Shown here piece by piece: positions 7,060 to 31,067 of a DNA stretch of 60,642 nucleotides. The notes below the pieces were generated by a model. The model was not told the DNA's origin, made no database searches, and saw only the letters and a program-made list of their open reading frames with translations. Within the stretch, counting starts at the first letter, position 1, and each line of letters begins with the position of its first letter. The stretch is from Candidatus Hydrogenedens sp. GTDB taxonomy: Bacteria > Hydrogenedentota > Hydrogenedentia > Hydrogenedentales > Hydrogenedentaceae. The position numbers and the translations under genes are program-made. Location of the stretch: positions 1 through 60,642 of the forward strand of contig JBMFRC010000019.1 in NCBI GenBank assembly GCA_049968235.1, in the 5' to 3' direction.

Positions 7060-7078
7060 AAAATTGCTCCTTCATTTA

Positions 7079-17332: not shown

Positions 17333-19922
17333 CGGAAGGAATTATATCTTCATCATTATAATTTGTTTGCATCTCGATTTCATCCCTATTTTCAGAAGAC
17401 ATATTCAAAATTTCACGCGGTTTACTTCCACGGTGCGGTCCTACAATTCCTCGTAGTTCCATTAAATCTATCAAATGCCCGGCGCGAGCATACCCGATTC
17501 GCAATCGACGCTGAAGTAAAGAAACCGATGCTTGTTTTGTCTCTCGAACAATACGGACCGCTTCCTCAAATAAAGGGTCATCATCATCGAAAGACGACTC
17601 GGTATCTTTCTTCTTTTGGTTATCAAAACCAATATAATTAAGATACTGCGGTGGCGCCTGTGATTTCAAATAATTTACCAATGTTTCTATCTCTTCATCA
17701 CTAACAAAAGCACCCTGAATACGCATCGGCTTTGGTAACCCAGCATTATGGTATAACATATCACCATGTCCAATCAACTTTTCAGCACCTATCGTATCTA
17801 AGATACATCGCGAATCAATTTTAGAGGAAACCTGGAACGAAATACGAGCAGGGAAATTCGCCTTAATCACACCTGTAATTACATCTACTGAAGGTCTCTG
17901 GGTTGCTACAATTAAATGTATTCCTACCGCTCGGGCTAATTGGGAAAGTCTCGCAATAGCACTTTCAACCGCATTTCGTTGGAGCATCATTAAATCCGCT
18001 AATTCATCAATGATACAAACGATATGAGGAAGTTTGCGGACAACCTTTATAGGAGATGAGAACAAATCTCTGTCACCATCTTCATAAATTTCTAATTGTC
18101 CATTTTCTACATTCTGATTATAAATTTCCAGGTTGCGTGTATTGGTATTTGCGAAAAGGGTATATCGTCGCTCCATCTCTTTTACAAGAATATCTAAAGC
18201 CTCACCTGCTTTCTTCGCATCCGTTACAACGGGTTCCAATAAATGAGGAATATCATTGAATATAGAAAATTCCACCATCTTGGGGTCAATTAAAACCAAT
18301 CGCAGTTCATCAGGCGTATATTGAAATAGTAAACTTGCAAGCAATGCTTTCACGAAAACAGTTTTTCCTGAACCTGTAGCACCTGCAATAAGGAGATGCG
18401 GCATTTGTGTAAGGTCAACAACTTTGACCTCACCTGTAATATCCTTGCCGAGAGGTAATCGCAATCTTCCGCGATGTTTTATTAAGGAATAACTTTCCAG
18501 TAGTTCTCTTAACAATACCTGTTCACGAACGGGGTTGGGAACCTCAATGCCGACTTTGCCTCTTCCTGGAATAGGTGCCTCCACACGAACACGGTCTGCT
18601 TTCAACGCAAGAGTAATATCATCTGCATGTGATAAAAATCGTGTTACTTTTATTCCCGGCTCCGGTTCTAATTCATATCTTGTAATTGTCGGACCGTGAG
18701 TAATTCCTGTAACTCGTGCCTTCACTCCAAATCGTTCTAATGTCCTTATTAAAATTTCTGCCCGTTCTTGTAGTTGTTCGTTATAATTGGGTATTTCAAA
18801 AGGGACAGGTTCATCCAGTAAAGTTAGTGGCGGTTTTGTATATTGCTCCGGATAGTCAGGTTTCGTTGTTATCATCTGTATGTTATTCGACTTATGTTGG
18901 GAAGGGTGACCGGAACGAACAGGCTCTTCGGATGAAATATATGAAAGTGTCGGATTATTTTTTGGCAACTCTTTATTTTCCTTTTTTGAAAAATTCCAGA
19001 ACCCCCCTTTTTTCTCTTTAATATTCTTCGTGGCTCCCTTACCCATAATGGACTCAGAAATAGATGCTTCGCTCACAAATTTATCCGTATTTTCTGTTCT
19101 GGAAAGGGTGGAAACGGGTGATGTTGATTGGGAACACATTTCGGGGGGGTCCTGTTCCATCTCCGTTAAAGGCAAATCTGGCAAACATGAAGTATCTACA
19201 TTACTTCTATGATGAAAGTGTGAGTTATCTTCATTTACATGATTTAATGGAAGTTGAAGTTGGACTGAAGAAGGTTCGGTTAGAACAGTATATTGCTCTA
19301 AAGAAATGATATTTGCATTAATCCACTCAATTCCATGCTTTGCTGAAATGAATAGTTCCTTTGCATAATTATAGAAAGCGGAAAATAAGAAATATATTGT
19401 GCGAAGAAGATAAATGAAGAGCCAATCTAAAGATAAAATAAGTCCCGCAAGAATTAGCATAAACGAAACAAGAACAGACGGAAACACACCGAAATTAGGA
19501 ACCAGTATTTCTGCTACAATTCGATATCCAATACTATTTCCGGCGGCTAATTTTCCAGTCCAGAACAAGTAATACGCCTGCGAAAAGATAGCGATATTTG
19601 TTAATAATAGCGATAGTCCTAAAAAGCCCTGAATAAACGAAAAAGGATAACGCTCATCCCACAAAATAATTGACCATAAAAATAATATTATATAAAGGAA
19701 ATGTACGGCAGGACCTATAGCCAGAAAAATTTGGTAAACAATATTTTTTGTTCCTAATATAATTGGTAATAAAAAAGGGATATTAACAACCGGGGTATCT
19801 GCCTCTCTATCGGAATGGATTTCAGGATTAAATATAATAATTGTGAACAGAAGTATACTAACGAGAAGAAACAATGTGGAAAAAAGAACCTTTTTTACGG
19901 TTATGTAGTGATAATTCAACAT
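17304..19922 (-). CDS. ftsK: DNA translocase FtsK/SpoIIIE
   Basis: N-terminal multi-TM region. Walker A IAGATGSGKT. C-terminal winged-helix gamma domain (SLLQRRLRIGYARAGHLIDLME). The ORF runs to 19976, but the likely start is the Met of MLNYHYI at 19922. Confidence 0.9.
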   Translation of the reverse strand: MLNYHYITVKKVLFSTLFLLVSILLFTIIIFNPEIHSDREADTPVVNIPFLLPIILGTKNIVYQIFLAIGPAVHFLYIILFLWSIILWDERYPFSFIQGFLGLSLLLTNIAIFSQAYYLFWTGKLAAGNSIGYRIVAEILVPNFGVFPSVLVSFMLILAGLILSLDWLFIYLLRTIYFLFSAFYNYAKELFISAKHGIEWINANIISLEQYTVLTEPSSVQLQLPLNHVNEDNSHFHHRSNVDTSCLPDLPLTEMEQDPPEMCSQSTSPVSTLSRTENTDKFVSEASISESIMGKGATKNIKEKKGGFWNFSKKENKELPKNNPTLSYISSEEPVRSGHPSQHKSNNIQMITTKPDYPEQYTKPPLTLLDEPVPFEIPNYNEQLQERAEILIRTLERFGVKARVTGITHGPTITRYELEPEPGIKVTRFLSHADDITLALKADRVRVEAPIPGRGKVGIEVPNPVREQVLLRELLESYSLIKHRGRLRLPLGKDITGEVKVVDLTQMPHLLIAGATGSGKTVFVKALLASLLFQYTPDELRLVLIDPKMVEFSIFNDIPHLLEPVVTDAKKAGEALDILVKEMERRYTLFANTNTRNLEIYNQNVENGQLEIYEDGDRDLFSSPIKVVRKLPHIVCIIDELADLMMLQRNAVESAIARLSQLARAVGIHLIVATQRPSVDVITGVIKANFPARISFQVSSKIDSRCILDTIGAEKLIGHGDMLYHNAGLPKPMRIQGAFVSDEEIETLVNYLKSQAPPQYLNYIGFDNQKKKDTESSFDDDDPLFEEAVRIVRETKQASVSLLQRRLRIGYARAGHLIDLMELRGIVGPHRGSKPREILNMSSENRDEIEMQTNYNDEDIIPSDEEDYGYEQ

Positions 19923-20170
19923 AATGCAAACCTTTATATACAATATATAGAAGTACAATATATTGTATAATAACATAAAAAAGAGACTTTGTCAATCAAA
20001 TAAAATAAAAACTTATCTCTACAAAAAATCCCAATATAGAACCGAAAAATAGCAAATCTAAAACAAATTCGAAATTCCCTTTGCATGTTTTATATCTTTT
20101 ATTTTGTTATAATTAGTTCTCTATAAAAGTTTTGTATAAATTATTCTAACTTGAAAATAGGTAGTAATTT

Positions 20171-21460
20171 ATGGCGGTTTCGTTAAAGACAAAAATATCG
20201 TTCGGGTTGGGAGGTATCGCTCTTACCCTGCCAGACATGGTTTTTACGCAGTGGATTTTCATGCGATATGTGCCAAATGAAAAAGATGCTTTGTTATCTG
20301 CCTCGTTGTTTGGTATTATCTTCATGATTGCTCGTGTATGTGGAGCCATTGCAGAACCGCTGATTGGTCACTGGAGTGATTCCTGTAGAACAAGATGGGG
20401 ACGACGCATACCTTTCGTTCGATTTGGATTATTACCTCTTGTTATATTCTTTTTCTTGATGTGGCATCCTCCTGTTTTGACACCTATCTGGTTTCGGGCT
20501 ATTTATGCATACCTCGTAATACAGATATACCTTTTGTTTTATCCGGGGGTATTAACACCCTATTTATCTCTGCTTACAGAATTGGGAGAAGAAAGTATGG
20601 ACCGTGTTCGATTAATGACGGCACAGGGTGTTTTTGTTATGCTCGGAAGTGTAGTATTTGCATTGGTAGGTGTCGTTAAAGAAAACTACAGTTGGACAAT
20701 AATGTCTTTGCTGGTTGGATTTCTAACATTTTCCTCATTACTTCCCATTGCTATAACGGGAAAAGAACGTAATGTGCTGAAAGAAAATGAACAAAATGTC
20801 TCATTTATCCAATCCGCTATATGGGTTTTAAAAAGTAGGTCATTCCTGCATCTTGTTTTTGGAACCTCTTTTTATTTCCTTGCATTTACCTGTATTGTGA
20901 TGAGTCTCCCCTTCTGGGTTAAGGTGTATTTAGGAAAAGGCGAGGCTTTTGTAACTTACCTCATGCTACCTCTATTGCTGATTACCATGGTTTTGTTTGC
21001 TTTTGTAGGTCCGACGGTAGAACGTTTGGGGAAATACCGTGTTTTTTCGCTCACATTATTGCTGGCAAGTTTAGGGTTGTTTTTCCTATCGGCTGTGGGA
21101 CTCTATCCAATAGGTAGCCCCTTTACTCACTTACTAACTGTGGTGATGTGGATGGGTATCCCTGTGGCAGGATTGGCTGTATTACCTTTTGCAATTCTGA
21201 CCGATGTAATTGATGAGGATGAAAAGAAAACGGGGACAAGACGCGATGCGATATTCTTTGCTATTCAGGGAACAATTCAAAAAATATTTATAGGCATCTC
21301 CGGTGGAATTTTTTCCGTGCTGGCATATTGGGGTAGTGAAAGTAATGTAACAGAACAAGGATTGCGATTGGTTGCTATTGCAGGCGGATTAAGTGCTTTT
21401 GTGGGTTTTTTAATTTTTCTTGGTTATCCCCTAAAAAATATTGATGTAAAACGGAAATGA
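20171..21460 (+). CDS. MFS transporter, glycoside-pentoside-hexuronide (GPH) cation symporter-like
   Basis: 429 aa, about 12 TM segments. N-terminal FGLGG motif typical of the MelB/GPH family. Confidence 0.55.
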   Translation: MAVSLKTKISFGLGGIALTLPDMVFTQWIFMRYVPNEKDALLSASLFGIIFMIARVCGAIAEPLIGHWSDSCRTRWGRRIPFVRFGLLPLVIFFFLMWHPPVLTPIWFRAIYAYLVIQIYLLFYPGVLTPYLSLLTELGEESMDRVRLMTAQGVFVMLGSVVFALVGVVKENYSWTIMSLLVGFLTFSSLLPIAITGKERNVLKENEQNVSFIQSAIWVLKSRSFLHLVFGTSFYFLAFTCIVMSLPFWVKVYLGKGEAFVTYLMLPLLLITMVLFAFVGPTVERLGKYRVFSLTLLLASLGLFFLSAVGLYPIGSPFTHLLTVVMWMGIPVAGLAVLPFAILTDVIDEDEKKTGTRRDAIFFAIQGTIQKIFIGISGGIFSVLAYWGSESNVTEQGLRLVAIAGGLSAFVGFLIFLGYPLKNIDVKRK

Positions 21461-21681
21461 ATATTTGAAAGTATGAATGTTATTTTCTCTAAGTAGAGAG
21501 GCGATGAGAATTTTTCTCTTTGATTACAACACTTAAAGCATAAATTTTTTTACAGTTTTAAAACACTTTTTGACATTTGGTTTTTATTCAATGGTTTTTT
21601 GTAATAAGAAAGGATATTTATACATAATAGAAAGATTGTCTTTGTTGTAAACAAGTGAATATATTTTTGGAGGATAATTAT

Positions 21682-22953
21682 ATGGCACGAAAGAAAACGA
21701 CACGCAGAGAATTTTTGAAAGCGTCTGGAGCGGTAGGGTTAAGTTTTATGGTCCTGCCGAGACGCATATTAGGGGGCAAAGCACACGCCTCGCCAAATGA
21801 AGAATTGACCCGTGCAATTATCGGGGTTGGTGGTATGGGAATGGGACATATCGGATACCCTGGTGCTCGATTACTTGCGGTCTGTGATGTAGATGAAAAA
21901 CACCTAAAGCAGGCACTGGAAAAAGCAGGGCCGGATGTGAAGGGATATAAGGATTATCGAGAAGTACTTGCCCGTGAGGACATTGATATTGTCCATATTG
22001 TTACCCCTCCGCACTGGCATGCTATTATTGCCGTCGATTCTGCCCGTGCAGGTAAGGATATCTGGTGCGAGAAGCCTATGACCCGCACTATTGGAGAGGG
22101 GAAAAAAGTAGTAGAAGCAGTTCAACGGTATGGGCGTATTTTCCGTCTGAATACATGGTTTCGGATGAAAGACACTTTCTATGGGTTTGGCACTACTGCA
22201 TATGAAATAAAAAAAGTTGTTGATAGTGGTATATTAGGCTGGCCCCTGAAAGTTAATGTAGGCGAGTCCACAGGTTTTACTTGGAAATTTTTCTGGTCAG
22301 GAATGACGAATTTAGAACCGCAACCTGTTCCTCCCGAATTGGATTATGACTTCTGGTTGGGTCCTGCTCCATATAAACCGTATCATCCTCATCGTGTTCA
22401 TTCAACCTTCCGTGGATATTGGGATTATGATGGAGGTGGATTGGGGGATATGGGACAGCACTATTTAGACCCGGTCCAATATTTGTTAGGTAAAGATGAT
22501 ACAAGTCCTGTTGAAGTGGAGGTTTCTGCTCCCCCACAACATCCCGATGCGGTCAGTTCTTTCCGCTGGATTCGTCTCCGTTATGAAGATGGTTGCGAGA
22601 TTATTCTTGATGGGGAAGGAAAACCAGGCTTACCCTATCTGGAAGGACCTAAAGGGAAACTCTATCCGGGATTAAAATCTGATGTTCCTAATTTTGAGAA
22701 AAAATTAGCATCATTCCCCAATCCGGAACCCCTTCCTTGCGATTTTGCACATTCTGTTCGCACACGGGAAAAATTCCCTCTAAATGAAGTGAATGGACAT
22801 CGTTCCTGCACCATTGTCAATCTTGCAAAGATTGCCATGCAATTGGGTAGAAGTTTGCGATTTGACCCTGTCAAGCAGGAGTTTATTGGTGATGAAGAAG
22901 CAAACCGACTTATCAACCAACCCATGCGTGCACCCTGGACTTTACAAGTATAA
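21682..22953 (+). CDS. Tat-exported Gfo/Idh/MocA family oxidoreductase (ThuB/glycoside 3-dehydrogenase-like)
   Basis: SD ggagga precedes the ATG at 21682. Twin-arginine signal TRREFLKASGAVGL. Rossmann motif IIGVGGMGMGH. Similar in length and layout to the second copy at 40957. Confidence 0.8.
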   Translation: MARKKTTRREFLKASGAVGLSFMVLPRRILGGKAHASPNEELTRAIIGVGGMGMGHIGYPGARLLAVCDVDEKHLKQALEKAGPDVKGYKDYREVLAREDIDIVHIVTPPHWHAIIAVDSARAGKDIWCEKPMTRTIGEGKKVVEAVQRYGRIFRLNTWFRMKDTFYGFGTTAYEIKKVVDSGILGWPLKVNVGESTGFTWKFFWSGMTNLEPQPVPPELDYDFWLGPAPYKPYHPHRVHSTFRGYWDYDGGGLGDMGQHYLDPVQYLLGKDDTSPVEVEVSAPPQHPDAVSSFRWIRLRYEDGCEIILDGEGKPGLPYLEGPKGKLYPGLKSDVPNFEKKLASFPNPEPLPCDFAHSVRTREKFPLNEVNGHRSCTIVNLAKIAMQLGRSLRFDPVKQEFIGDEEANRLINQPMRAPWTLQV

Positions 22954-22965
22954 GGAGAATAAACA

Positions 22966-25752
22966 ATGAATACATCGAATAAATCAACACAAATATATAT
23001 AACATCTATCTTTGTAACTATTTTTTTATTAACTTCACTTACTACAAGAGCAGAAATAGCACAATGGTTAGAAAAAATAGGTTCTGCCTCTGTGACGGAG
23101 GGTTATGGTATATGTGAAGAACTTTGCAAACAAGGAGAACCCAAAATTGTAGAACTATGTCAGCATATCAAACCTCAGGGCGATGACCGTAATGCGCGCT
23201 TGTTTGTCCGTATGTTAGTAAATTATGCATCCACTCAGTCGACAGAGATACAAAATACGGTAGTAAGAGGTTTCGTAAAAGCACTACAGGCAAATCAGGA
23301 TACACAAATTAAGGCATTTTTAATCAGTGAACTTCAAATGTTAGGAAATCCTCTGTCTGTAGAAGCAATAGCAGAATATATCGGGAATAAAGACCTGTGT
23401 GATTATGCTATTCGTGCTTTGCAAACGATAAATAATGATGTATGCTTTCAGAAACTGTGCGAAAACCTTTCCCGTTCTGAGGGGAGATGTCAACAAGGTA
23501 TTATCACTGCTTTGGCAGAAATAGGCAATCCACAAGCAATTATGGTTTTAGAAAAGTTATTCAATTCTGCCCCACCCGAAACAAAAGAAATAATATTAAT
23601 TGCCATTGCACAACTGGAAAATGACAGTGAGAAATATTACAAACTTATAGAGACACAGTTAAGTGCGGATAAACCACTCACTAGAAAACAGTCTTATACT
23701 CTGCTTTTTACACAAATCGAAAGGGTAGCAAAACAAAAGGGTATAACACCACAGCAGAAAAATATTCTTGAAACTCTATTGCAACAGGCATATAAAGAAA
23801 ATGATAATGGTGCTATATGTGCAATCCTCCATTTATTTACCTATCTACCTCCAAAAGATATTATCGATTTGTTTGCCCGAGAAGTTTATAACCCTCAACC
23901 GGAAATATCCGCAGTTGCTTTACAATATTTCGCTAAGATGAATACGAAAGAAAGTAAAAATGTACTAAAAGAAGCCCTTGTCAAAAGTGCATCTGGTGGA
24001 AACGCTTATCAAGTCCTGGATGCGGTAGAAAAAGTACCTGATTCCTTATTTATCCCTGCAATTGTTCCTTTATTAACTCATTCAGATGAAAAAGTTCGAA
24101 TGAAGGCAATACAGTGCCTGATAAAAATGGATGCGGATAAAGCGATACCGATTTTAGTAAAACGATTAAAAGAGACCACAGATAAAACCAATTTAAATGC
24201 TATTCAACAGGCACTTCTTCAAACACCCCCCAAAGAAACTGTTACGGAATTGGGTTCATCTTTGAAAAAGTTAAAAGGGGAACGATTGGTTGTTGCTCTG
24301 GATATTCTGGCTCAACGACAGGCGGAAAAATATTTTAAGTTCGCACTTCAACAGACAAAGGATAAAGATGCAAAAGTTCAAAAAACCGCTTTGAATGCGA
24401 TAGCACTCATGGGTACTCCAAAGGATGTTCCTTCTCTTATTAAACAATTAACCGACCCGAAGAACCCCAATCAAGATGCGATTGGTGAAGCCATCGTTCA
24501 TATATTAAAACATAAAGAGGATGAGGACCGTTGCAAACCTATCTTTTCAGCAATGGATAAGGCAAAACCGGAACAATATGCATTGTTGCTTTCAATTCTT
24601 GCAAAAGTGGATGATGCGTCCGCACGGGATTTTGTCCTTTCATGGCTCAATCTACCTTCGGATGTCCCTCAAAACAAGGTAAAGATAGAAAACGCCATTT
24701 CTGCTCTGACTCTCTGGGATAACCCAAAACTTGCAGAAAACATGATTGCCTTTCTCAGAAAGAACCCTAATCATCCTTATCGCAATGATGTGTGGAAAAC
24801 ACTTATTCGCTTTTTATCCTTGCCCGGTTTAACCCCGGATGAAAAAGTATGGGTATGTGAACAGGCTATTGGAATTATGCCTGAAAATGCAGGGGATATG
24901 TTTACTATTTTAGGAGGGATAAGCAACAGTGATTCTTTCCTGACGGTTGCAAAATATACCACCAATCCCCAGTTCGCAGATATTGCAAATAAGACACTGG
25001 TGCGAATTGCTATGCCCGATAAAAATAATGAAAATGGTATTACAGGTCGAGACATTGTTCCCTATCTGGAAAATGCATTGAAGTATATTGATGATGCAAC
25101 ATTGAAAGAAAATATTCAGAAACACATTGAAAAATGTAAAAATGCCCCCTATACTCTACCTGTAGTTTATGAAGATGACAATCAGTTTACATTACTATTC
25201 AATGGTAGCAATTTGAAAGGTTGGAGTGGCTATACTCGGGGATTTGTCCCCGAATTTGGGAAACTGGTCTGCTTACCTACCTGCCACCTGAATTTGTTTA
25301 CAGAGAAACCCTATAAAGATTTTATTTTACGATTTGAATTCAAATTATATCCCGGTGCTAATAACGGCATTGGACTACGCGTTCCTTACATGAAACATTC
25401 AGCCTATAATGGCATGGAAATACAAATCCTTGATGATAATGCTCCAGAGAATAGTGGATTGAAACCATATCAATATCACGGTTCTATATATGGAGTATTG
25501 CCCCCTGCAGTTCCTGCTCCATTGAAAAAATGTGGAGAGTGGAATCAACAGGAGATTATCTTACAGGGGTCGAAAATATCCGTTCGTGTTAATGGAGTAG
25601 AGATTCTAACAGCAGATTTGAAAGAATTGGCAAATAAGCCTACCCCGGATGAAAAGGCACATCCCGGTTTGCTTAATGAGGAAGGACATATTGCTCTGCT
25701 TGGACACGGCTCTCGCGTTGAATTTAGGAATATAAGAATAAAGCAACTATAA
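22966..25752 (+). CDS. Sec-exported HEAT-repeat protein with C-terminal DUF1080 (3-keto-disaccharide hydrolase/lyase-like) domain
   Basis: 928 aa. Signal peptide (IFVTIFLLTSLTTRA). Roughly 700 aa of helical repeats with recurring PBS-lyase/HEAT-like units (ALxxIG.P.AI..L). The C-terminal 200 aa (FNGSNLKGWSGY...NNGIGLRVP...MEIQILDD...HGSIYG...GEWNQQEII...FRNIRI) match the DUF1080 jelly-roll. No CxxCH heme motif. Confidence 0.75.
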   Translation: MNTSNKSTQIYITSIFVTIFLLTSLTTRAEIAQWLEKIGSASVTEGYGICEELCKQGEPKIVELCQHIKPQGDDRNARLFVRMLVNYASTQSTEIQNTVVRGFVKALQANQDTQIKAFLISELQMLGNPLSVEAIAEYIGNKDLCDYAIRALQTINNDVCFQKLCENLSRSEGRCQQGIITALAEIGNPQAIMVLEKLFNSAPPETKEIILIAIAQLENDSEKYYKLIETQLSADKPLTRKQSYTLLFTQIERVAKQKGITPQQKNILETLLQQAYKENDNGAICAILHLFTYLPPKDIIDLFAREVYNPQPEISAVALQYFAKMNTKESKNVLKEALVKSASGGNAYQVLDAVEKVPDSLFIPAIVPLLTHSDEKVRMKAIQCLIKMDADKAIPILVKRLKETTDKTNLNAIQQALLQTPPKETVTELGSSLKKLKGERLVVALDILAQRQAEKYFKFALQQTKDKDAKVQKTALNAIALMGTPKDVPSLIKQLTDPKNPNQDAIGEAIVHILKHKEDEDRCKPIFSAMDKAKPEQYALLLSILAKVDDASARDFVLSWLNLPSDVPQNKVKIENAISALTLWDNPKLAENMIAFLRKNPNHPYRNDVWKTLIRFLSLPGLTPDEKVWVCEQAIGIMPENAGDMFTILGGISNSDSFLTVAKYTTNPQFADIANKTLVRIAMPDKNNENGITGRDIVPYLENALKYIDDATLKENIQKHIEKCKNAPYTLPVVYEDDNQFTLLFNGSNLKGWSGYTRGFVPEFGKLVCLPTCHLNLFTEKPYKDFILRFEFKLYPGANNGIGLRVPYMKHSAYNGMEIQILDDNAPENSGLKPYQYHGSIYGVLPPAVPAPLKKCGEWNQQEIILQGSKISVRVNGVEILTADLKELANKPTPDEKAHPGLLNEEGHIALLGHGSRVEFRNIRIKQL

Positions 25753-25802
25753 CGAAGAGATACAACAAGAATCAATAACAACATAAAAAAAGGAAATAAT
25801 AT

Positions 25803-27650
25803 TTGTTTTCTCTGCCTTTGCTCATCGTATTCTCATCGTTTGTAATAGCAGAACCTATGCCTATTTATTATTATGATTTCTCATGGTCAACAGAAATCGA
25901 TATAAACATAGGGAACAATGCTCGTAATGCGTGGGACACAGGACATTTATTGGCATCATTACAGGGAATTGTAAATCGAGCAGAACCTCGTTTATTTATT
26001 CGATTTATGAAGGGAACCGATGATTTTTGGTGGAATGAGTTTTTGAAACCAGGTGGATGGTTGGAAAAAAAAGAAATAAAGCAAGTAGATAATTGGTTAG
26101 ATTTGCTAAATGTCTTCCATTCCTTTATTCAAGGAATTGTTATATATTCGGAAAAAGTTCAGCCATCATCCAATCTTGCCAGTACCATTGCAGGGCTGGA
26201 AAATCGTATCTGCTTGAGATATGACCCGGAAGATGAAAGTGTTTTCAAAAAAGTTCTTGCAACAAATCTTCCTTTTACAAAAAATCTACGATGGCTTATT
26301 GATAACAAAACATTTGATATTCTCCCTGATGTGCAGATAAACAATTATCCCGATATATCCACAACGAGCCTAAAAGCCCGGTTTTATCTCTGGGCAAAGG
26401 AACAATTCTTAGATACAGGTTTATGTAGTCCCGAATTCCTGGCTTATTATATTGACGGCTATTGGTTCCAAAAACCATCCTCAGCCTCGTTTCCCAACGC
26501 TACAATTATGAATCATGACTTTTTCATATCACGAAGGGCGTTTTTCTTCGATTTAGGTATCTGGGGTGATGAATCTGCCAATGATGAACCCCAACAACCC
26601 GCAGGAACAGACCGTAAAATACTTCGTGAAATTTTATTGAGTATGTATAGAAATGCAAGAGGCATGATTTACCAGATAGGCGGTTTTACTCCGTGGATAT
26701 GGAAATACACGCAGGAAACAGGAATGGGAGGAAAACATCAAGGAGTGCCAACCGAATGGGAATTTGTAAAGATGGCTTCTTCTTACAATGGTGTATTGGA
26801 TGCAGATGCCTTAGGGCTTGCTGGTATAGCAAATGCTTCGTTTTATCAACATTACCCAATAAAGTCCTTCTACCCACAAAATCCGAAACCAACCCTCGAG
26901 GACTTGAAACGACAGGGATATATTACACATAGTGGAAAAGTTGTCCCGAAAGTATATCTGTGTTTTTACATGGGAGATTTTGATTCCTCTGCATGGTTAA
27001 ATCAAACTGTGCCGAAATGGTGGTCTGACCCGGCACATGGTGATATTACTTGTACATTCCCCTTTAATCCCAACCTGTCTCGTCGTGTCCCTCATGTATT
27101 TGATTATGTTCGAACCCATGCAAGTCCAAAAGATTGGTTTATCTATGGCGACTGTGGTGCAGGGTATCTGAACCCCGGTATGTTAATTGCCTCCTATAGA
27201 GAATCGGGTATTCCTACTGGTTGGAATGCATGGGTTGAACATAATTTGTTTTATAGCAAACGATTTGACCTATCCATTACAGGATTTATCATTGATGGCT
27301 ATGCCCCTGGTCTGGATAAAGATGGATTTGAAGCATACTCCCAATTTTCGCCAGATGGTATTACAGCCCAAAAAATACCTTTTTTAGGCTGTTATGAAAA
27401 AAAATTACCCTATGTTCGCATGGGTATAGATTTAATGGAAGCTCCAGAAAAATCGTCGGATATCATAGCGGAATATGCCAAAAAGCAGTTACCTTCTTTC
27501 AAATTCATCCGAACTATTTTGAAATCTCCAACATGGCATAAAACTGTAATTGACTTAACTCAGCAGAAAACCGACGCAGTGGCATTCATAGACCCATATA
27601 CTTTTTTTGAATTGGTAAAGATTCACACACAATGTAACAATTCCTTGTGA
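25803..27650 (+). CDS. Secreted hypothetical protein, possible GxGYxYP-family glycoside hydrolase-like
   Basis: 615 aa, TTG start with a short signal-like N-terminus. Contains GDCGAGYLNPG, which resembles the GxGYxYP motif (G-x-G-Y-x-N-P here). Low-confidence family call. Confidence 0.35.
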   Translation: MFSLPLLIVFSSFVIAEPMPIYYYDFSWSTEIDINIGNNARNAWDTGHLLASLQGIVNRAEPRLFIRFMKGTDDFWWNEFLKPGGWLEKKEIKQVDNWLDLLNVFHSFIQGIVIYSEKVQPSSNLASTIAGLENRICLRYDPEDESVFKKVLATNLPFTKNLRWLIDNKTFDILPDVQINNYPDISTTSLKARFYLWAKEQFLDTGLCSPEFLAYYIDGYWFQKPSSASFPNATIMNHDFFISRRAFFFDLGIWGDESANDEPQQPAGTDRKILREILLSMYRNARGMIYQIGGFTPWIWKYTQETGMGGKHQGVPTEWEFVKMASSYNGVLDADALGLAGIANASFYQHYPIKSFYPQNPKPTLEDLKRQGYITHSGKVVPKVYLCFYMGDFDSSAWLNQTVPKWWSDPAHGDITCTFPFNPNLSRRVPHVFDYVRTHASPKDWFIYGDCGAGYLNPGMLIASYRESGIPTGWNAWVEHNLFYSKRFDLSITGFIIDGYAPGLDKDGFEAYSQFSPDGITAQKIPFLGCYEKKLPYVRMGIDLMEAPEKSSDIIAEYAKKQLPSFKFIRTILKSPTWHKTVIDLTQQKTDAVAFIDPYTFFELVKIHTQCNNSL

Positions 27651-27784
27651 ATATATTCCAGAATTAATTGAATACATAGAATCATTTTAAAAGAAGAATA
27701 ATAAGTATGGCGGAAAGATTTTTATAGAAACTCCTGTTACATGTATAATAGAAATAGAGTAAACTTGTCGAAAAAAGGTCTCAC

Positions 27785-29818
27785 ATGGCACAGGTAAGAT
27801 GTTCAAAATGTAATCATATAAATCCGGATGGAGTGAATCAGTGCGAGAATTGTAATGCCCCGTTGCCAGCAATAAAAATCAGTCCCATAACCGCGGAAAC
27901 CCGGAAAGTAGACCGAATACCGTATGAGCAAAAGACCCCGAATTTTCAACAGGGGACATTACACCGAGGGGAAATTTTTGGAAGTCGATACACTGTTGTA
28001 AAACTTATCGGAAGGGGTGGAATGGGTAGTATTTATAGGGTATTTGATAATACCTTAAAAGAAGAAGTTGCCTTAAAGTTATTATTGCCCCAGTTTGCTA
28101 AAGACCCCATGATTGTTGACCGTTTCCTGAATGAAGCCCGTATAGCACGGAAACTATCTCATCCTAATATTGTTCGTGTCCATGATATTGGAATTGCAGG
28201 AAATATCTTATACATATCAATGGAATATATAGAGGGTAAATCTCTACGGGGTATTCTGGAAAGTATGCTTCCGGGACAACGTCTTCCTCTAAAACAGGTA
28301 TTGACCTACTTCGACCAGCTATGCTCCGCTCTGGAATATGCACACCAATTTACGGTCCATCGCGACATAAAACCTGAAAATGTGATGGTAACTCCTCAAA
28401 ATACTGTAAAACTCATGGATTTCGGCATCTCAAAATTGATGGCGGACACAAGGTTAACAGGTGTTTCTGTTGTGATGGGGACACCTTTTTATATGTCGCC
28501 GGAACAGGTTCGAAATAGCAGGGATGTGGATGCTCGTTCTGATATTTACAGTTGTGGAATTATGTTATACGAAATACTGACAGGTCAGGTCCCTACGGGT
28601 GTTCCCAAACCTGCCTCGGAACTCATCAAAGAACTACCTCCTGAATTGGATAAAATTGTGGAGAGATGTATTCAACCCGAACCTAAAGACCGATTCCAGA
28701 GTGCAGGGGAGTTGAGAAAGGCAATAGAACCACTAAAAAATCTCGTTCTTACGGGTGATGAAATTTCTGTTTCTCATCCCACGAAAAGAATAAATAAATG
28801 GAAGACTTTCTTAACACCACGAGTCATAGGCTGGTCTTTGATTACTCTCGTGCTGTTGCTCTGTTCCGCAGGATTATTCTTTGCTGAACAATATAGAGAA
28901 CAATTGCTTGCTCAAGAAGCGGTTTCAGAAGGGAATTTAGTTGCTCTTAATAATAACCAGATATCCACCGTAGATACCTATATAAAATTATTACTTCGCC
29001 TTGCTGAAAAGGCAAAAGAAAAAGCATCTACCGATGATAATGCACGACAGTATTTAAGTTGGGCTGAGCCTATTCTGAATCAAATACAAACAAAATTTAA
29101 TGCGGGCGAAATAGTACCATTAGATTTGTTATTTTCATGTGCCCGTTACCTTTCTGCCATATTTTGTGAACATGAAGGAATGGTTCTTATTCCTGAGGGA
29201 ACTGCTACATGGAACAATCAGCAATATACCGTCCCTGCATTTTTCATTGATATAAATGAGGTTACTCAGGAGCAATATAAGAAATTCTACACCTCCGGTT
29301 CTATCCATTGGGAAATGCCCCCATTCTCCGGTTTAGAAACAATTCAGGATAAGCAAGATTTATTACCTGTTACAATGGTCAATTATTTTGATGCTCTTGC
29401 TTATGCCAGTTACTATAAAAAAAGTCTACCCACAGTTTGGCAATGGTTAAGAGCCGGACAGGGCGAGAGGCAAATAGTATATCCATGGGGCGATGTCTGG
29501 AAAGAAAATGCTTCAAATATAGGCGGTATTAATAATACTCCTGTACCTACAAAATCATATCCTGATGACCGAAGTCCTATGGGCTGTTTTGACATGTTAG
29601 GAAATGTTTCCGAATGGACATGTACCCCTGCTAATTCAGATTGCTCACAAGATAATTTTTGTCCCCGTGTTATTATGGGAGGCGATTATGCTTCCCCTCA
29701 AACATCTCTTGCTCAAAGTCGAAGTGCAGAACCCGAGATACGTTCTCCCCTTATCGGTTTCCGATGTGTAAAAGAAATCCCTATCGCACCTTCTCAACTT
29801 ATAGAATATTTGAAATAA
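27785..29818 (+). CDS. Ser/Thr protein kinase with N-terminal zinc ribbon, TM segment and C-terminal FGE-sulfatase (SUMF1) domain
   Basis: Zn ribbon CSKCNHI...CENCNAP. Kinase motifs VALK, HRDIKPENVMV, DFGIS and SPE. TM segment WSLITLVLLLCSAGLFF. C-terminal FGE-sulfatase-like region (VNYFDALAYASYY...WQW...GNVSEWT...RCV). Confidence 0.8.
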   Translation: MAQVRCSKCNHINPDGVNQCENCNAPLPAIKISPITAETRKVDRIPYEQKTPNFQQGTLHRGEIFGSRYTVVKLIGRGGMGSIYRVFDNTLKEEVALKLLLPQFAKDPMIVDRFLNEARIARKLSHPNIVRVHDIGIAGNILYISMEYIEGKSLRGILESMLPGQRLPLKQVLTYFDQLCSALEYAHQFTVHRDIKPENVMVTPQNTVKLMDFGISKLMADTRLTGVSVVMGTPFYMSPEQVRNSRDVDARSDIYSCGIMLYEILTGQVPTGVPKPASELIKELPPELDKIVERCIQPEPKDRFQSAGELRKAIEPLKNLVLTGDEISVSHPTKRINKWKTFLTPRVIGWSLITLVLLLCSAGLFFAEQYREQLLAQEAVSEGNLVALNNNQISTVDTYIKLLLRLAEKAKEKASTDDNARQYLSWAEPILNQIQTKFNAGEIVPLDLLFSCARYLSAIFCEHEGMVLIPEGTATWNNQQYTVPAFFIDINEVTQEQYKKFYTSGSIHWEMPPFSGLETIQDKQDLLPVTMVNYFDALAYASYYKKSLPTVWQWLRAGQGERQIVYPWGDVWKENASNIGGINNTPVPTKSYPDDRSPMGCFDMLGNVSEWTCTPANSDCSQDNFCPRVIMGGDYASPQTSLAQSRSAEPEIRSPLIGFRCVKEIPIAPSQLIEYLK

Positions 29819-30171
29819 AAGCATACAGGTACGAGACCTCTGAATAAAACAAATACGATAGATAGTACATGAAAGATTATATAAAGAAAGGGGAAATGTG
29901 CTGTATGATAAAAGTGGTAAAGCAGGTGAGTTTTTTAGATTATGCAGTATCAAAACAAAACTGACATGATGAGAGAGATGATTGAGAGTGAGGCAAGAGA
30001 TAACCTGTGGAAGAAATTAGAATGCAGATGGTAGAGGGAAGTATATAATTCAAACTGGGAAGAGCGGATGCTTCCATTTTTACTATTTTGTGTGTTATTG
30101 AGCAGTGTGTGATGATTTCTCTAAGTTCTCTTTGCAAGTAATTTGAATGGTGGCGGTAGAACGACTTTTTC

Positions 30172-30228
30172 TCTGTGTTCTCTGTGGTGGAGTATTTTTT
30201 TTCTCACCACAGAGAACACGAAGAGAGG
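30172..30228. other. Strong stem-loop (15-bp perfect stem, about 15-nt loop) in long convergent intergenic region
   Basis: gtgttctctgtggtg (30177-30191) pairs with caccacagagaacac (30207-30221). Flanking ctct/agag extends the stem across a bulge. No canonical U-tract on either strand. Confidence 0.6.
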
Positions 30229-30587
30229 AGTATATCTTTCCTTGTTAATGACCGCATATAATTTGAAGTGGCTGTATGAGAAATTAAGGGTACAAAAGGA
30301 GAGATGTGCATAGATAATCAAAAGATAAAAGAACTGACAGAAAATAACAAATAAAATGGGTAGAAGTAGAGATACATACTCTTGCATTTTAATTTTTCAT
30401 CGGAATTTTATCCCGTAAAAACATATATAACTTATACCCTAAATTCTTACACTAATTGTTAAGAGGTCTCGTATATAATATCCTATTTATTTACAATAAT
30501 CTGCCTCAATGAGAAAGTATCTGTATTATCTGACTCTTCTTATTAACAACATAAACTGGTTATAATGTAATTTATTTTAGAAAAATT

Positions 30588-31067
30588 TTATCGAGGTAGA
30601 GGTTTAATGTGCAATGCACAGATAGCAAGGGCAAGGGCATCAGCAGAATCATCCGGTCGGGGAATTACATCCAATAATAAGAGTCTCTGCACCATACTTT
30701 GCACCTGTATTTTTTCCGCTCTACCATACCCAACAAGAGCTATTTTAACTTCGGTTGGACTGAATTCAACTACCGGTATCTGCAGATGTGCGGTTGCAAG
30801 TAAAAGAACTCCGCGTGCTTGTGCAACATATATCCCATTGGTTACATTTTTTTCAAAATAGAGGCGTTCTATGGCAATAGTATCCGGCCTATATTTTTTT
30901 ATTAAATCTAAGGCATTTTGATAAATTATAGCCAGTCGTTCCGCTATATCTTTTGATGCAGGTGTTCGGATTGTCCCATGAGAGATATGGAAGTAGCGAG
31001 AACCTTTTTTATGAACGAGTCCATAGCCCGTAGTGGCTAAGCCGGGGTCAAATCCGAGAGCAATCAT
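30588..31067 (-). CDS. ruvC: Holliday junction resolvase RuvC
   Basis: N-terminus MIALGFDPGLATTGYGLV is the RNase-H-like RuvC start. 159 aa. Confidence 0.9.
   Translation of the reverse strand: MIALGFDPGLATTGYGLVHKKGSRYFHISHGTIRTPASKDIAERLAIIYQNALDLIKKYRPDTIAIERLYFEKNVTNGIYVAQARGVLLLATAHLQIPVVEFSPTEVKIALVGYGRAEKIQVQSMVQRLLLLDVIPRPDDSADALALAICALHIKPLPR

What the first reader, a model, noticed from the sequence alone, without database searches (positions are those of the whole stretch)
21682..25752. Module 1: Tat-exported ThuB-like oxidoreductase followed by a giant HEAT-repeat protein ending in a DUF1080 domain
Gfo/Idh/MocA oxidoreductases of the ThuB/glycoside-3-dehydrogenase type and DUF1080 proteins (3-keto-disaccharide hydrolase/lyase) are established partners in oxidative glycoside cleavage. 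Here the DUF1080 domain is not free-standing: it is the C-terminal cap of a 928-aa Sec-exported protein whose first 700 aa are HEAT/PBS-lyase-like repeats with no heme motif. The oxidoreductase carries a Tat signal, so it is exported folded with its NAD cofactor, and the partner carries a Sec signal. The gene pair is 12 nt apart. This suggests a periplasmic two-enzyme machine held on a helical-repeat scaffold, and that architecture is not described for the canonical pathway. The same logic recurs at 40957..46031.
Basis: partly seen in the sequence, partly recalled or inferred. Interest (0 to 1): 0.7.

Follow-up and report, generated by a model that had tools for sequence, protein, structure and literature searches.

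The report
Conserved periplasmic dehydrogenase plus HEAT-solenoid lyase pair
Two adjacent genes encode an exported sugar dehydrogenase and a long helical-repeat protein ending in a 3-keto-sugar lyase domain; the pair turns out to be a strictly conserved, so far undescribed cassette in many bacterial phyla, probably a variant of the recently discovered "oxidise-then-eliminate" way of cutting glycosides.

Summary
The 423-aa protein at 21682..22953 is a Gfo/Idh/MocA oxidoreductase (PF01408 plus PF19051) with an RREFLK twin-arginine signal. Twelve nucleotides downstream, 22966..25752 encodes a 928-aa protein. It has a signal peptide, about 21 HEAT repeats (aa ~30-725), no CxxCH motif, and a C-terminal DUF1080/PF06439 domain (aa 741-926).

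The organism is Candidatus Hydrogenedens, not a PVC bacterium. The closest solved relative of the oxidoreductase is the Alistipes glucoside-3-dehydrogenase AL3, so "ThuB-like" is only loosely apt.

The architecture is not rare. There are hundreds of 50%-identity clusters of HEAT+DUF1080 proteins, in ~920-aa and ~1130-aa classes.

- All 52 testable long genes in a species-level genome scan have an ortholog of this oxidoreductase (60-94% identical) directly upstream. None of 32 short DUF1080 ORFs does.
- In the reverse test, 47 of 50 oxidoreductase orthologs in metagenomes have a HEAT+DUF1080 gene directly downstream.
- Module 2 (40957..46031) is a paralogous pair whose solenoid carries ThuA instead of DUF1080.

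Best reading: a functionally coupled periplasmic pair for oxidative, non-Koshland glycoside cleavage, with the solenoid probably docking the dehydrogenase. The chemistry and the physical complex are inferred, not shown. Verdict: a new variant of a known kind, of moderate interest.

The parts
21682..22953 (+). Gfo1: a 423-aa Gfo/Idh/MocA oxidoreductase of the PF19051 type. It carries the Rossmann motif GVGGMG (aa 48-53), EKP (aa 130-132) and GDMGQH (aa 255-260).
   Evidence: Pfam domains. Motifs. Best PDB sequence hits are 8TDF/8TDH (AL3), E 3e-29. The AF2 model's best Foldseek hits are AL3, TM 0.66-0.69. NCBIfam BT_2158_fam is the best family but scores below its cut-off.
21682..21789 (+). Twin-arginine (Tat) signal region of Gfo1, aa 1-36: MARKKTTRREFLKASGAVGLSFMVLPRRILGGKAHA. 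The cleavage site is uncertain.
   Evidence: TIGR01409 17.4 bits against a 16.7 cut-off. Pfam TAT_signal is below its cut-off. The RRxF[L] motif is kept in 133/134 orthologs. This segment has pLDDT below 50 in the model.
22954..22965 (+). 12-nt intergenic spacer, GGAGAATAAACA, which carries the ribosome-binding site of ORF B.
   Evidence: Sequence read directly. In homologous loci the gap is typically -41 to +66 nt.
22966..23052 (+). Sec-type signal peptide of ORF B (aa 1-29, ...LTTRA/EI).
   Evidence: Hydrophobicity and sequence. An equivalent N-terminus is found in 105/105 homologs, and only 7 of them have a lipobox-like motif.
23053..25140 (+). HEAT-repeat alpha-solenoid (aa ~30-725), about 21 repeats and 42 helices, with no heme motif. 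The best-conserved block is aa 61-160.
   Evidence: HEAT_2 and HEAT_PBS hits. AF2 model with pLDDT 92. Foldseek gives only generic similarity to karyopherin-beta2, Kap121, CAND1 and SF3B1. Conservation profile. The region aligns collinearly with the module-2 solenoid, 23% identity, E 4e-10.
25186..25749 (+). C-terminal DUF1080 / PF06439 beta-jelly-roll domain (aa 741-928), a putative 3-keto-glycoside 1,2-lyase/hydratase.
   Evidence: PF06439 2.1e-39. PDB sequence hits include 4jqt, 3s5q, 3imm and BT2157 8tda. Foldseek TMt is 0.84 to 3imm, 0.80 to 3s5q and 0.64 to BT2157/AL2/8rr2. E791, N799, E818, Q820, Y842 and H914 are conserved. There is no GH16 motif.
20171..21460 (+). MFS_2 (glycoside-pentoside-hexuronide type) sugar transporter, upstream on the same strand. 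It is a possible accessory gene and is not conserved with the pair.
   Evidence: PF13347 8.8e-48. A homolog is seen near the pair only in L007. A 220-nt gap separates it from Gfo1.
25803..27650 (+). GxGYxYP-family putative glycoside hydrolase, 50 nt downstream of ORF B. It is conserved with the pair only in close Hydrogenedens relatives.
   Evidence: PF14323, PF16216 and PF20957. Synteny in L001-L004. Family description in PMC4071793.
27785..29818 (+). Ser/Thr kinase fused to an FGE-sulfatase-like domain. It is a conserved downstream neighbour in close relatives, and its role in the module is unknown.
   Evidence: Pfam. Synteny in L001-L004.
40957..42282 (+). Gfo2: a paralogous Tat-signal PF19051 oxidoreductase (module 2), 35% identical to Gfo1 over the full length.
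42264..46031 (+). Module-2 partner. It consists of a signal/TM segment, a ThuA domain (aa 54-297), a HEAT solenoid homologous to that of ORF B, and a C-terminal beta-rich domain without a family match.
   Evidence: Pfam. 649 homologs, some of which are ThuA+HEAT+DUF1080. A PF19051 Gfo lies directly upstream in L168 and L169. Solenoid alignment.

Best explanation
The two genes form a functionally coupled, periplasmic, non-Koshland glycoside-cleaving pair.

**Proposed mechanism**
- Gfo1 is folded in the cytoplasm with a tightly bound NAD(H) and exported by the Tat pathway.
- In the periplasm it oxidises C3-OH of a glycoside. In this it resembles its closest solved relative, the glucoside-3-dehydrogenase AL3.
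- ORF B is exported by Sec. [quoted passage not shown]
- The resulting 3-keto-sugar is reduced again by Gfo1-NADH. The cycle is therefore redox-neutral and needs no free cofactor.
- The released sugar is taken up, for example by the adjacent MFS_2 transporter.
- The ~700-aa HEAT solenoid is most likely a docking arm that holds the dehydrogenase next to the lyase/hydratase domain(s). This would let the labile keto-intermediates shuttle back and forth.

**Shown here**
- Domain identities.
- Export signals.
- Fold similarity.
- Conserved catalytic motifs.
- Strict two-way synteny across phyla.
- Paralogous reuse of the "PF19051 Gfo + solenoid" unit with other appended domains.

**Inferred**
- The chemistry.
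- The substrate.
- The bound cofactor.
- The physical complex.
For: **Identity of the parts**
- Domains.
- The best PDB sequence and fold matches of Gfo1 are AL3 (8TDF/8TDH; E 3e-29; TM 0.66-0.69).
- In the alignment, Gfo1 keeps EKP and the Asp/His of GDMxxH, which correspond to AL3 D248/H252. It also keeps the Trp equivalent to W195, and has Lys in place of R192.
- The DUF1080 domain superposes on BT2157/AL2 and on "3-keto-glycoside eliminase/hydratase" 8rr2/9fbe. It keeps E791, N799, E818-x-Q820, Y842 and H914, which are invariant across 130 relatives and shared with 3s5q/4jqt.

**Localisation**
- The Tat motif is present in 133/134 orthologs, and a signal peptide in 105/105 partners.

**Coupling**
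- 52/52 long HEAT+DUF1080 genes with upstream DNA have a Gfo1 ortholog immediately upstream. None of 32 short DUF1080 ORFs has one.
- In the reverse test, 47/50 Gfo1 orthologs have a HEAT+DUF1080 gene directly downstream. One has DUF1080 only, one has HEAT only and one has an unrelated gene.
- Gfo1 orthologs form a tight group, with a median pairwise identity of 68% and a minimum of 58% over 91 loci. Their divergence tracks that of the DUF1080 domain (rho 0.60).
- The cassette occurs in Hydrogenedentota, Bacteroidota, Planctomycetota (Anaerohalosphaeraceae), Aminicenantes and Balneolaceae.

**The solenoid itself is the conserved partner**
- Module 2 and its relatives pair a PF19051 Gfo with a homologous solenoid that carries ThuA. 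Some members carry both ThuA and DUF1080.

**Carbohydrate context**
- In the window: an MFS_2 transporter and a GxGYxYP protein.
- In other loci: GH29 fucosidase (22 loci), ROK (14+6), MFS (14) and sulfatase (10).
- Some family members have F5/8-type-C carbohydrate-binding inserts.

**Rationale for tethering**
- In vitro, AL3/BT3 stalls in the reduced form, and re-oxidation is rate-limiting by more than 100-fold (preprint 10.1101/2024.03.25.586180, section 8).
Against: - No interaction was computed or measured. AlphaFold-multimer was not available, and no Gfo-solenoid fusion (Rosetta stone) was found among the eight longest or atypical family members scanned.
- The canonical AL2/AL3 and BT2/BT3 enzymes are interchangeable, and the authors conclude that they are not obligate complexes (preprint, section 8).
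- The solenoid is poorly conserved (about 20-25% identity). That would be unusual for a fixed interface against a 60-70% conserved partner.
- Gfo1 misses the BT_2158_fam equivalog cut-off, and only its N-terminal half aligns. Its C-terminal half is PF19051, so substrate and regiochemistry may differ.
- The Gln two residues before the C-terminal His in 3s5q/4jqt is Leu912 in this subclade. By its spacing I infer that this Gln corresponds to BT2 Gln273, which the preprint describes as a sugar ligand. I could not align BT2157 directly.
- No AL1/BT1-type TIM-barrel beta-lyase lies within the module.
Confidence: 0.6

Rival explanations
1. The chemistry is the same (oxidation, elimination, hydration), but the solenoid does not bind the dehydrogenase. 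Instead it binds the polymeric or oligomeric glycan substrate, as helical-repeat SusD-like proteins do, or it anchors the lyase to another envelope component. The two proteins would then act as free, diffusing enzymes, and the synteny would reflect only a shared substrate.
For: - Canonical AL/BT enzymes are not obligate complexes (preprint 10.1101/2024.03.25.586180, section 8).
- The solenoid sequence is weakly conserved.
- Some family members insert F5/8-type-C carbohydrate-binding modules between the solenoid and DUF1080, and module 2 ends in a beta-rich, possibly lectin-like domain. Both suggest that the long protein is the substrate-recognition part.
Against: - The association is with one tight Gfo orthogroup, and DUF1080 proteins without a solenoid lack it.
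- The paralogous module keeps the solenoid and the Gfo while swapping the appended domain. This argues that Gfo and solenoid are the co-evolving unit.
- The closest structural analogues of the solenoid are protein-binding karyopherin/CAND1-type solenoids, although that similarity is generic.
Confidence: 0.25
2. The DUF1080 domain here is not a 3-keto-glycoside lyase. It would be a lectin or a GH16-like endo-glycanase, as reported for the DUF1080 protein THTE_1561 (endo-xanthanase/lichenase, cited in PMC9007349). Gfo1 would then oxidise or reduce a released sugar independently.
For: - DUF1080 has a GH16-like jelly-roll fold, and at least one member is reported as an endo-glycanase (PMC9007349).
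- This subclade carries its own invariant residues (Q836, H838, D895, H899), and has Leu where 3s5q and 4jqt have Gln.
- Its best PDB matches are uncharacterised structural-genomics proteins rather than BT2157.
Against: - ORF B has no GH16 E-x-D-x-(x)-E motif.
- The residues shared family-wide with the lyase/hydratases are kept.
- The obligatory pairing with an AL3-like, Tat-exported dehydrogenase is what the oxidative pathway predicts, and a hydrolase has no need for it.
Confidence: 0.1
3. The solenoid protein links the dehydrogenase to an electron acceptor, making this a respiratory sugar dehydrogenase. It would resemble the HEAT plus cytochrome-c multidomain proteins of Planctomycetota/Verrucomicrobiota (recalled from my own knowledge of TIGR02603/TIGR02604-type proteins, not tested here). 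Net oxidation rather than redox-neutral cleavage would then take place.
For: - Re-oxidation of the bound cofactor is the known bottleneck (preprint, section 8).
- A multihaem cytochrome gene lies at the end of the ThuA-HEAT locus L169.
Against: - ORF B has no CxxCH or other cofactor motif.
- There is no NCBIfam hit to heme-binding PVC models.
- No cytochrome gene recurs near the pair.
Confidence: 0.05

Closest known systems
BT2156-BT2160 / AL1-AL5 oxidative glycoside-cleavage clusters of Bacteroides thetaiotaomicron and Alistipes (Liu et al. 2021, PMC8121099; Nasseri et al., bioRxiv 10.1101/2024.03.25.586180)
   Same: - A Tat-signal Gfo/Idh/MocA dehydrogenase and a signal-peptide DUF1080 protein are encoded side by side.
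- Gfo1's best sequence and fold matches are AL3.
- The DUF1080 domain superposes on BT2/AL2.
- Both systems are periplasmic and lack access to a free cofactor pool.
   Different: - Here the DUF1080 domain is the C-terminal cap of a ~700-aa HEAT solenoid. In relatives there are one to three DUF1080 domains.
- The dehydrogenase has a PF19051 C-terminal half and misses the BT_2158_fam cut-off.
- The module contains no TIM-barrel beta-lyase (AL1/BT1), no second cytosolic Gfo (AL4/BT4) and no SusR-type regulator.
- The canonical enzymes are free-standing and not obligate complexes.
ThuA/ThuB trehalose 3-dehydrogenase of Agrobacterium/Sinorhizobium (as summarised in PMC8121099)
   Same: It is a Gfo/Idh/MocA dehydrogenase that makes 3-keto-disaccharides. 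Module 2 of the window pairs a Gfo with a ThuA domain.
   Different: Module 1 has no ThuA. Gfo1's nearest characterised relatives are AL3/BT2158 rather than ThuB. Here the ThuA domain is fused to a HEAT solenoid and is exported.
LacABC + DUF1080 (CCNA_01705) periplasmic 3'-ketolactose route of Caulobacter (PMC9007349)
   Same: A periplasmic glycoside 3-dehydrogenase is encoded next to a secreted DUF1080 protein.
   Different: The dehydrogenase there is a membrane-bound FAD/cytochrome LacABC type, not a Gfo family enzyme. The DUF1080 protein there is single-domain.
Glucose-fructose oxidoreductase (GFOR) of Zymomonas mobilis (PDB 1h6d, 'precursor form'; its biology is from my own knowledge)
   Same: It is a periplasmic Gfo/Idh/MocA enzyme exported with a tightly bound nicotinamide cofactor, and it runs a redox-neutral ping-pong cycle.
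   Different: It acts on free monosaccharides, has no lyase partner and has no solenoid. Similarity is weaker (E 6e-8, TM ~0.55).
Karyopherin-beta / CAND1 / SF3B1 HEAT solenoids (fold analogues only)
   Same: They are super-helical HEAT solenoids of 700-1000 aa that wrap protein cargo. They are the top non-DUF1080 Foldseek hits.
   Different: They are eukaryotic and cytoplasmic or nuclear. TM-scores are 0.2-0.3 with rmsd above 15 A, so the resemblance is in fold class only, and no homology is claimed.

Membership tests
Pfam PF06439 (3keto-disac_hyd / DUF1080) | Score above the gathering cut-off (26.8 bits) with full-length domain coverage. | tested here: met
   135.9 bits; aa 741-926 match profile positions 2-187 of 187.
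Pfam PF01408 + PF19051 (Gfo/Idh/MocA, C2-type C-terminal domain) | Both domains score above their gathering cut-offs. | tested here: met
   PF01408 scores 68.9 bits (cut-off 24). PF19051 scores 441.6 bits (cut-off 23.3) over profile positions 2-253 of 254.
NCBIfam NF058561 BT_2158_fam (glycoside 3-dehydrogenase, equivalog) | Whole-protein score of at least 750 bits. | tested here: not met
   148.8 bits; only profile positions 1-256 of 487 are matched. Gfo1 is a relative, not an equivalog.
AL/BT-type oxidative glycoside-cleavage system | The dehydrogenase carries a twin-arginine signal, and the DUF1080 protein carries a secretion signal. | tested here: met
   RREFLK motif and TIGR01409 above its cut-off. 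Signal-like N-terminus of ORF B. Both features are conserved in orthologs.
AL/BT-type oxidative glycoside-cleavage system | Dehydrogenase active-site residues of AL3 (Q161, R192, W195, D248, H252, Y349). | tested here: inconclusive
   The phmmer alignment to 8TDF gives D256/H260 for D248/H252, Trp for W195, and Lys for R192. The Q161 region is gapped and Y349 lies outside the aligned part.
AL/BT-type oxidative glycoside-cleavage system | DUF1080 active-site and metal-site residues of BT2 (E103, N134, E164, Q166, Y190, K245, Q273, H275). | tested here: inconclusive
   - The BT2157 sequence could not be aligned directly.
- By alignment with 3s5q/4jqt, E791, N799, E818-x-Q820, Y842 and H914 are invariant.
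- The Gln two residues before the terminal His is Leu912.
- The Lys equivalent is uncertain (K854 or K897).
AL/BT-type oxidative glycoside-cleavage system | A TIM-barrel 3-keto-beta-glucoside lyase (AL1/BT1) and a second Gfo (AL4/BT4) in the same cluster. | tested here: not met
   Neither is present between 20171 and 29818. A secreted xylose-isomerase-like TIM barrel lies about 10 kb away on the other strand (10912..11748), with only generic PDB matches.
AL/BT-type oxidative glycoside-cleavage system | Enzymatic activities: 3-oxidation, 1,2-elimination, hydration, and a tightly bound NAD. | not testable with these tools
   Requires biochemistry.
ThuAB | A ThuA (PF06283) partner for the dehydrogenase. 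| tested here: not met
   ORF B has no ThuA domain. The feature is met by module 2 (ThuA at aa 54-297).
PVC-type heme-binding HEAT proteins / cytochrome c | A CxxCH heme-binding motif. | tested here: not met
   ORF B has no CxxCH, and no matching NCBIfam or Pfam model was hit.
GH16 glycoside hydrolases | The catalytic motif E-[ILV]-D-[IVAF]-[VILMF](0,1)-E. | tested here: not met
   A regex search of ORF B finds none.

The most novel reading that the evidence does not exclude
The unit [quoted passage not shown] is an undescribed, widespread bacterial enzyme platform. On this reading the solenoid physically clamps the dehydrogenase (probably a dimer) and presents interchangeable appended modules to it: one to three DUF1080 lyase/hydratase domains, ThuA, or discoidin/PA14-like binding domains. 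The result would be a self-contained, cofactor-recycling "glycosidase machine" that channels unstable 3-keto intermediates. It would solve the re-oxidation bottleneck seen with the free Bacteroides/Alistipes enzymes.
Probability: 0.35. Interest if true: 0.7.

Novelty: new variant of a known kind. Interest (0 to 1): 0.55.

Why it matters
Oxidative, non-Koshland glycoside cleavage was worked out only recently, and so far it is known from free-standing enzymes of gut Bacteroidota. This cassette shows that a large, unnamed branch of that chemistry exists in at least five phyla. These include anaerobic-digester Hydrogenedentota, marine and soil Bacteroidota, and Planctomycetota.

In this branch the lyase/hydratase is always carried on a ~700-aa HEAT solenoid and is always partnered with one tightly conserved Tat-exported dehydrogenase.

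If the solenoid docks the dehydrogenase, this would be:
- a rare bacterial periplasmic use of a karyopherin-like scaffold;
- a natural solution to cofactor recycling without a free NAD pool;
- a template for engineering broad-specificity glycoside-cleaving assemblies.

Even if it does not, the pairing gives a precise annotation rule for thousands of proteins now labelled only "DUF1080 domain-containing protein", "HEAT repeat protein" or "myo-inositol 2-dehydrogenase".

The pair occurs in cultured strains: Sphingobacterium spiritivorum ATCC 33861, Alistipes hominis, Mariniphaga sediminis, Arundinibacter roseus and Aquirufa spp. It is therefore directly testable.

Tried and rejected
**Tried without result**
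- Promoter/terminator scan of 19900..30600. Counts did not exceed shuffled expectation, so operon limits remain undefined.
I repeated it with database homologs.
- A multimer or fused-chain prediction of the pair is not possible.
- Direct residue mapping onto BT2157 was not possible, because its sequence never ranked among the printable alignments. I used 3s5q and 4jqt as proxies.
- Literature searches for HEAT+DUF1080, PF06439, PF19051, ThuA+HEAT and glycoside 3-dehydrogenase+Tat found no description of this architecture.

**Considered and rejected**
- A search for a Rosetta-stone Gfo-solenoid fusion among eight long or atypical family members found none. These carried extra DUF1080, F5/8-type-C or ThuA domains instead.
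- A heme or cytochrome identity for the HEAT region (no CxxCH).
- GH16 hydrolase identity (no motif).
- "PVC-specific" distribution.
- GxGYxYP and the Ser/Thr kinase as core parts of the cassette. They are conserved only in close relatives.
- The apparent exceptions to synteny in the BLAST screen. Pfam showed that most are divergent HEAT+DUF1080 proteins.

Full report
**1. Observation**

ORF A most likely starts at the ATG at 21682, which has a GGAGGA 7 nt upstream. It ends at 22953 and encodes 423 aa. ORF B starts 12 nt later, at 22966, behind its own GGAG, and runs to 25752, encoding 928 aa.

Pfam results:
- ORF A: PF19051 GFO_IDH_MocA_C2 (1.2e-132) and PF01408 (8e-19).
- ORF B: PF06439 over aa 741-926 (2.1e-39), four HEAT_2 stretches (2.9e-31) and HEAT_PBS.

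ORF A begins MARKKTTRREFLK. The Tat model passes the NCBIfam cut-off narrowly (17.4 against 16.7) and misses the Pfam cut-off. The motif is nevertheless conserved in 133 of 134 orthologs.

ORF B has a Sec-like N-terminus and no CxxCH. An AlphaFold2 model built on 34 homologs is confident (pLDDT 92.3, pTM 0.68). It shows 42 helices over aa 7-725 followed by a beta-sandwich.

The flanks add a same-strand MFS_2 sugar transporter (20171..21460) and a GxGYxYP putative glycosidase (25803..27650).

**2.

ORF B is 100% identical to an NCBI protein from a Candidatus Hydrogenedens MAG. The "PVC" frame is therefore wrong, although a DUF1559/pilin-like gene at 46208 gives the window a Planctomycetota-like flavour.

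"ThuB-like" is loose. By sequence, the best solved relatives of ORF A are 8TDF/8TDH, the Alistipes glucoside-3-dehydrogenase AL3 (E 3e-29, N-terminal half). The best NCBIfam family is BT_2158_fam "glycoside 3-dehydrogenase", but at 149 bits against a cut-off of 750. The AF2 model of ORF A (pLDDT 79.7) has AL3 as its top Foldseek hit (TM 0.66-0.69), ahead of DgpA, aldose-aldose oxidoreductase and GFOR.

ORF A keeps the motifs GVGGMG, EKP and GDMGQH. In the alignment the Asp and His of GDMGQH fall on AL3 D248/H252.

**3. The DUF1080 domain**

By sequence, the domain matches structural-genomics DUF1080 proteins (4jqt, 3s5q, 3imm) and, more weakly, BT2157 (8TDA, E 3e-6).

By fold, it matches 3imm (TMt 0.84) and 3s5q (0.80). 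It also matches BT2157/AL2 and the "3-keto-glycoside eliminase/hydratase" entries 8rr2 and 9fbe (about 0.64).

Across 96 solenoid-fused and 34 free-standing relatives, E791, N799, E818, Q820, Y842 and H914 are invariant and are shared with 3s5q and 4jqt. The subclade adds its own invariant residues Q836, H838, D895 and H899. It has Leu912 where 3s5q and 4jqt have Gln. No GH16 catalytic motif is present.

The literature establishes three points:
- BT2157 consumes 3-keto-trehalose (PMC8121099).
- These enzymes act with the Tat-signal dehydrogenase AL3/BT3. Its tightly bound cofactor must be re-oxidised by a keto-sugar, and that step is rate-limiting in vitro (bioRxiv 10.1101/2024.03.25.586180, sections 6, 8, 9 and 10).

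**4. How common is the architecture?**

A full HMMER scan of 1.84 billion cluster representatives found 673 proteins with E below 1e-30. Nearly all of the best 150 are 900-1150 aa long. They fall into two classes:
- about 920 aa, collinear with ORF B (HEAT plus one DUF1080);
- about 1130 aa (HEAT plus two DUF1080 domains).

Variants include three DUF1080 domains, F5/8-type-C inserts, and ThuA+HEAT+DUF1080. Source annotations are generic, such as "DUF1080 domain-containing protein" and "HEAT repeat protein". None of the literature searches found a description of the fusion.

**5. Co-conservation**

Within Hydrogenedens relatives, the block Gfo, HEAT-DUF1080, GxGYxYP and Ser/Thr-kinase-FGE is kept while the flanks change.

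The key finding is that Sphingobacterium alkalisoli (Bacteroidota) already has a PF19051 Gfo directly upstream of a 1130-aa HEAT+2xDUF1080 gene. I followed this up with two scans.

*Species-level genome scan seeded on the DUF1080 peptides, followed by ORF calling and BLAST.*
- It gave 54 long (at least 800 aa) genes.
- All 52 with upstream DNA available have an ortholog of ORF A on the same strand immediately upstream, at 60-94% identity.
- The gaps are mostly -41 to +66 nt.
- None of 32 short DUF1080 ORFs has such an ortholog.

*Reciprocal metagenome scan seeded on ORF A.*
- It gave 80 loci with orthologs at 64-96% identity.
- Of the 50 loci with at least 3.3 kb downstream, 44 were BLAST-positive for both HEAT and DUF1080.
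- Pfam showed that three further loci also have both, which gives 47 of 50.
- Of the remaining three, one has DUF1080 only, one has HEAT only and one has an unrelated kinase.
- Truncated loci mostly show the start of a HEAT protein.

Taxa with the pair include:
- Hydrogenedentota;
- many Bacteroidota, among them Sphingobacterium spiritivorum ATCC 33861, Alistipes hominis, Mariniphaga sediminis, Chitinophaga, Draconibacterium and Aquirufa;
- Anaerohalosphaeraceae (Planctomycetota);
- Aminicenantes;
- Balneolaceae.

Over 91 loci, the Gfo orthologs have a median pairwise identity of 68% and a minimum of 58%. Their divergence correlates with that of the DUF1080 domain (Spearman 0.60). By contrast, the solenoid is only about 20-25% identical between phyla.

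**6. Module 2 and the unit of conservation**

Gfo2 (40957..42282) is 35% identical to Gfo1 over its full length.

Its partner (42264..46031) carries a ThuA domain, HEAT repeats and a C-terminal domain with no family match. The solenoid of this partner aligns collinearly with that of ORF B: aa 103-616 against aa 371-879, 23% identity, E 4e-10.

The partner family is large (649 hits) and includes members of about 1350 aa with ThuA, HEAT and DUF1080 together.

Neighbourhoods of three homologs:
- In L168 and L169 a PF19051 Gfo lies directly upstream.
- L167 packs several Gfo genes and an AP_endonuc_2+DUF1080 fusion around a ThuA-HEAT-DUF1080 gene.

The recurring unit is therefore "PF19051 Tat-Gfo plus solenoid", with exchangeable appended domains. 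This is the strongest available argument, though an indirect one, that the solenoid itself works with the dehydrogenase.

**7. Context and substrate**

Recurrent neighbours of the pair in other lineages are GH29 alpha-L-fucosidase with an F5/8-C domain (22 loci), ROK kinases or regulators (14+6), an MFS transporter (14) and sulfatases (10).

The window itself adds several related genes:
- a GH95-like gene (58144..60390);
- a free-standing double-DUF1080 gene (54681..55916);
- a secreted xylose-isomerase-like TIM barrel (10912..11748) next to an SSF symporter and an FGGY kinase.

All of this is carbohydrate catabolism, but the substrate is not identified. A link to fucosylated or sulfated glycans is only a hint.

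**8. Mechanism**

*Best-supported reading (confidence 0.6 overall; about 0.4 for the docking step).*
- Gfo1 is Tat-exported with bound NAD and oxidises C3 of a glycoside.
- The DUF1080 domain eliminates the leaving group and hydrates the glycal.
- Gfo1-NADH then reduces the 3-keto-sugar, which closes a redox-neutral cycle in a compartment without free NAD.
- The solenoid tethers the two activities. This would address the re-oxidation bottleneck documented for the free enzymes.

*Shown:* domains, signals, fold, motifs, synteny and paralogous reuse.

*Inferred:* chemistry, bound cofactor, substrate and complex.

*Against the docking step:* the canonical enzymes are not obligate complexes, the solenoid is weakly conserved, no fusion proteins were found, and no interaction could be computed.

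*Rivals:*
- The solenoid is a glycan-binding or anchoring arm (0.25).
- The DUF1080 domain is a lectin or endo-glycanase, as reported for THTE_1561 (0.1).
- The solenoid protein is an electron-transfer adaptor (0.05).

**9. Comparison and novelty**

The system works like the BT2157/BT2158 and AL2/AL3 pathway and is related to it. It is not a member of the curated BT_2158 equivalog family, and it lacks the AL1/BT1 and AL4/BT4 components in cis.

The distinguishing features are the solenoid fusion, the PF19051-type dehydrogenase orthogroup, and their near-obligatory pairing across phyla. I found none of these described. I class it as a new variant of a known kind.

Interest is moderate (0.55). 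A CAZyme specialist would find the strict pairing and the periplasmic karyopherin-sized scaffold notable, and it is testable in cultured strains. The underlying chemistry, however, is probably the known one.

Noticed in passing
window 40957..46031: Module 2 is a paralogous pair. It consists of a Tat-signal PF19051 Gfo (35% identical to Gfo1) and a 1255-aa exported protein with ThuA, a homologous HEAT solenoid and a ~200-aa C-terminal beta-rich domain. That domain has no Pfam or PDB match (best hit an agglutinin, E 0.2). The two ORFs overlap by 19 nt if the GTG at 42264 is the start. The family has 649 or more homologs, some carrying ThuA+HEAT+DUF1080.
   Followed up: partly
window 54681..55916 (+), with 55958..56626 and 58144..60390: A third DUF1080 gene in the window: a free-standing 411-aa protein with two PF06439 domains. 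It is followed by a 222-aa ORF with no family, an Mrp/NUBPL-type ATPase and a GH95-like glycosidase. GH29 or GH95 fucosidase genes also recur next to the Gfo-solenoid pairs elsewhere (22 loci, and L168).
   Followed up: partly
window 9083..13391 (-): A secreted (signal-peptide) xylose-isomerase-like TIM-barrel protein (10912..11748) sits between an SSF sodium:solute symporter and an FGGY sugar kinase. It could be the AL1/BT1-like beta-lyase counterpart, but PDB matches are only generic (4ovx 7e-10, DgpC1 3e-7).
   Followed up: partly
window 27785..29818 (+): A Ser/Thr protein kinase with an N-terminal zinc ribbon and a C-terminal FGE-sulfatase-like domain. It is conserved directly downstream of the GxGYxYP gene in all close Hydrogenedens relatives (L001-L004), so it may sense or regulate something related to the module.
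   Followed up: no
window 25186..25749 (ORF B aa 741-928) and 130 related domains: This DUF1080 subclade has its own invariant residues (Q836, H838, D895, H899, R805). It has Leu912 where the solved structures 3s5q and 4jqt have Gln. By its spacing to the terminal His I infer that this Gln is the BT2 sugar ligand Gln273, which hints at a different sugar specificity.
   Followed up: partly
window 32672..35371 (-): An 899-aa ORF with no Pfam hit at E below 1e-5.
   Followed up: no
window 39249..40697 (-): A 482-aa protein made of DUF6937 and DUF6938 (E 1e-72 and 1e-88), transcribed divergently from module 2.
   Followed up: no
L167 (ENA ERZ27256808 contig), 971..11289: A Sedimentisphaerales-type locus that concentrates the whole toolkit. 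In order it holds a Gfo (PF02894 type), a ThuA-HEAT-DUF1080 protein (1356 aa), two PF19051 Gfo genes, an AP_endonuc_2+DUF1080 fusion protein, and another Gfo.
   Followed up: no
L104 3537..5666; L161 6245..8503; L166 6283..8157: Rare departures from the cassette. In L104 a Gfo1 ortholog is followed by a Ser/Thr kinase-TPR gene. In L161 it is followed by a 753-aa protein with two DUF1080 domains and no detectable HEAT. In L166 it is followed by a 625-aa HEAT-only ORF, which may be a truncation or frameshift.
   Followed up: partly
window 293..8718 (-): Hydrogenase maturation genes (HypD, HypF, a HypB-like cobW GTPase and a HypE-like AIRS protein) occupy the left end of the window. This is consistent with a hydrogen-metabolising anaerobe.
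   Followed up: no
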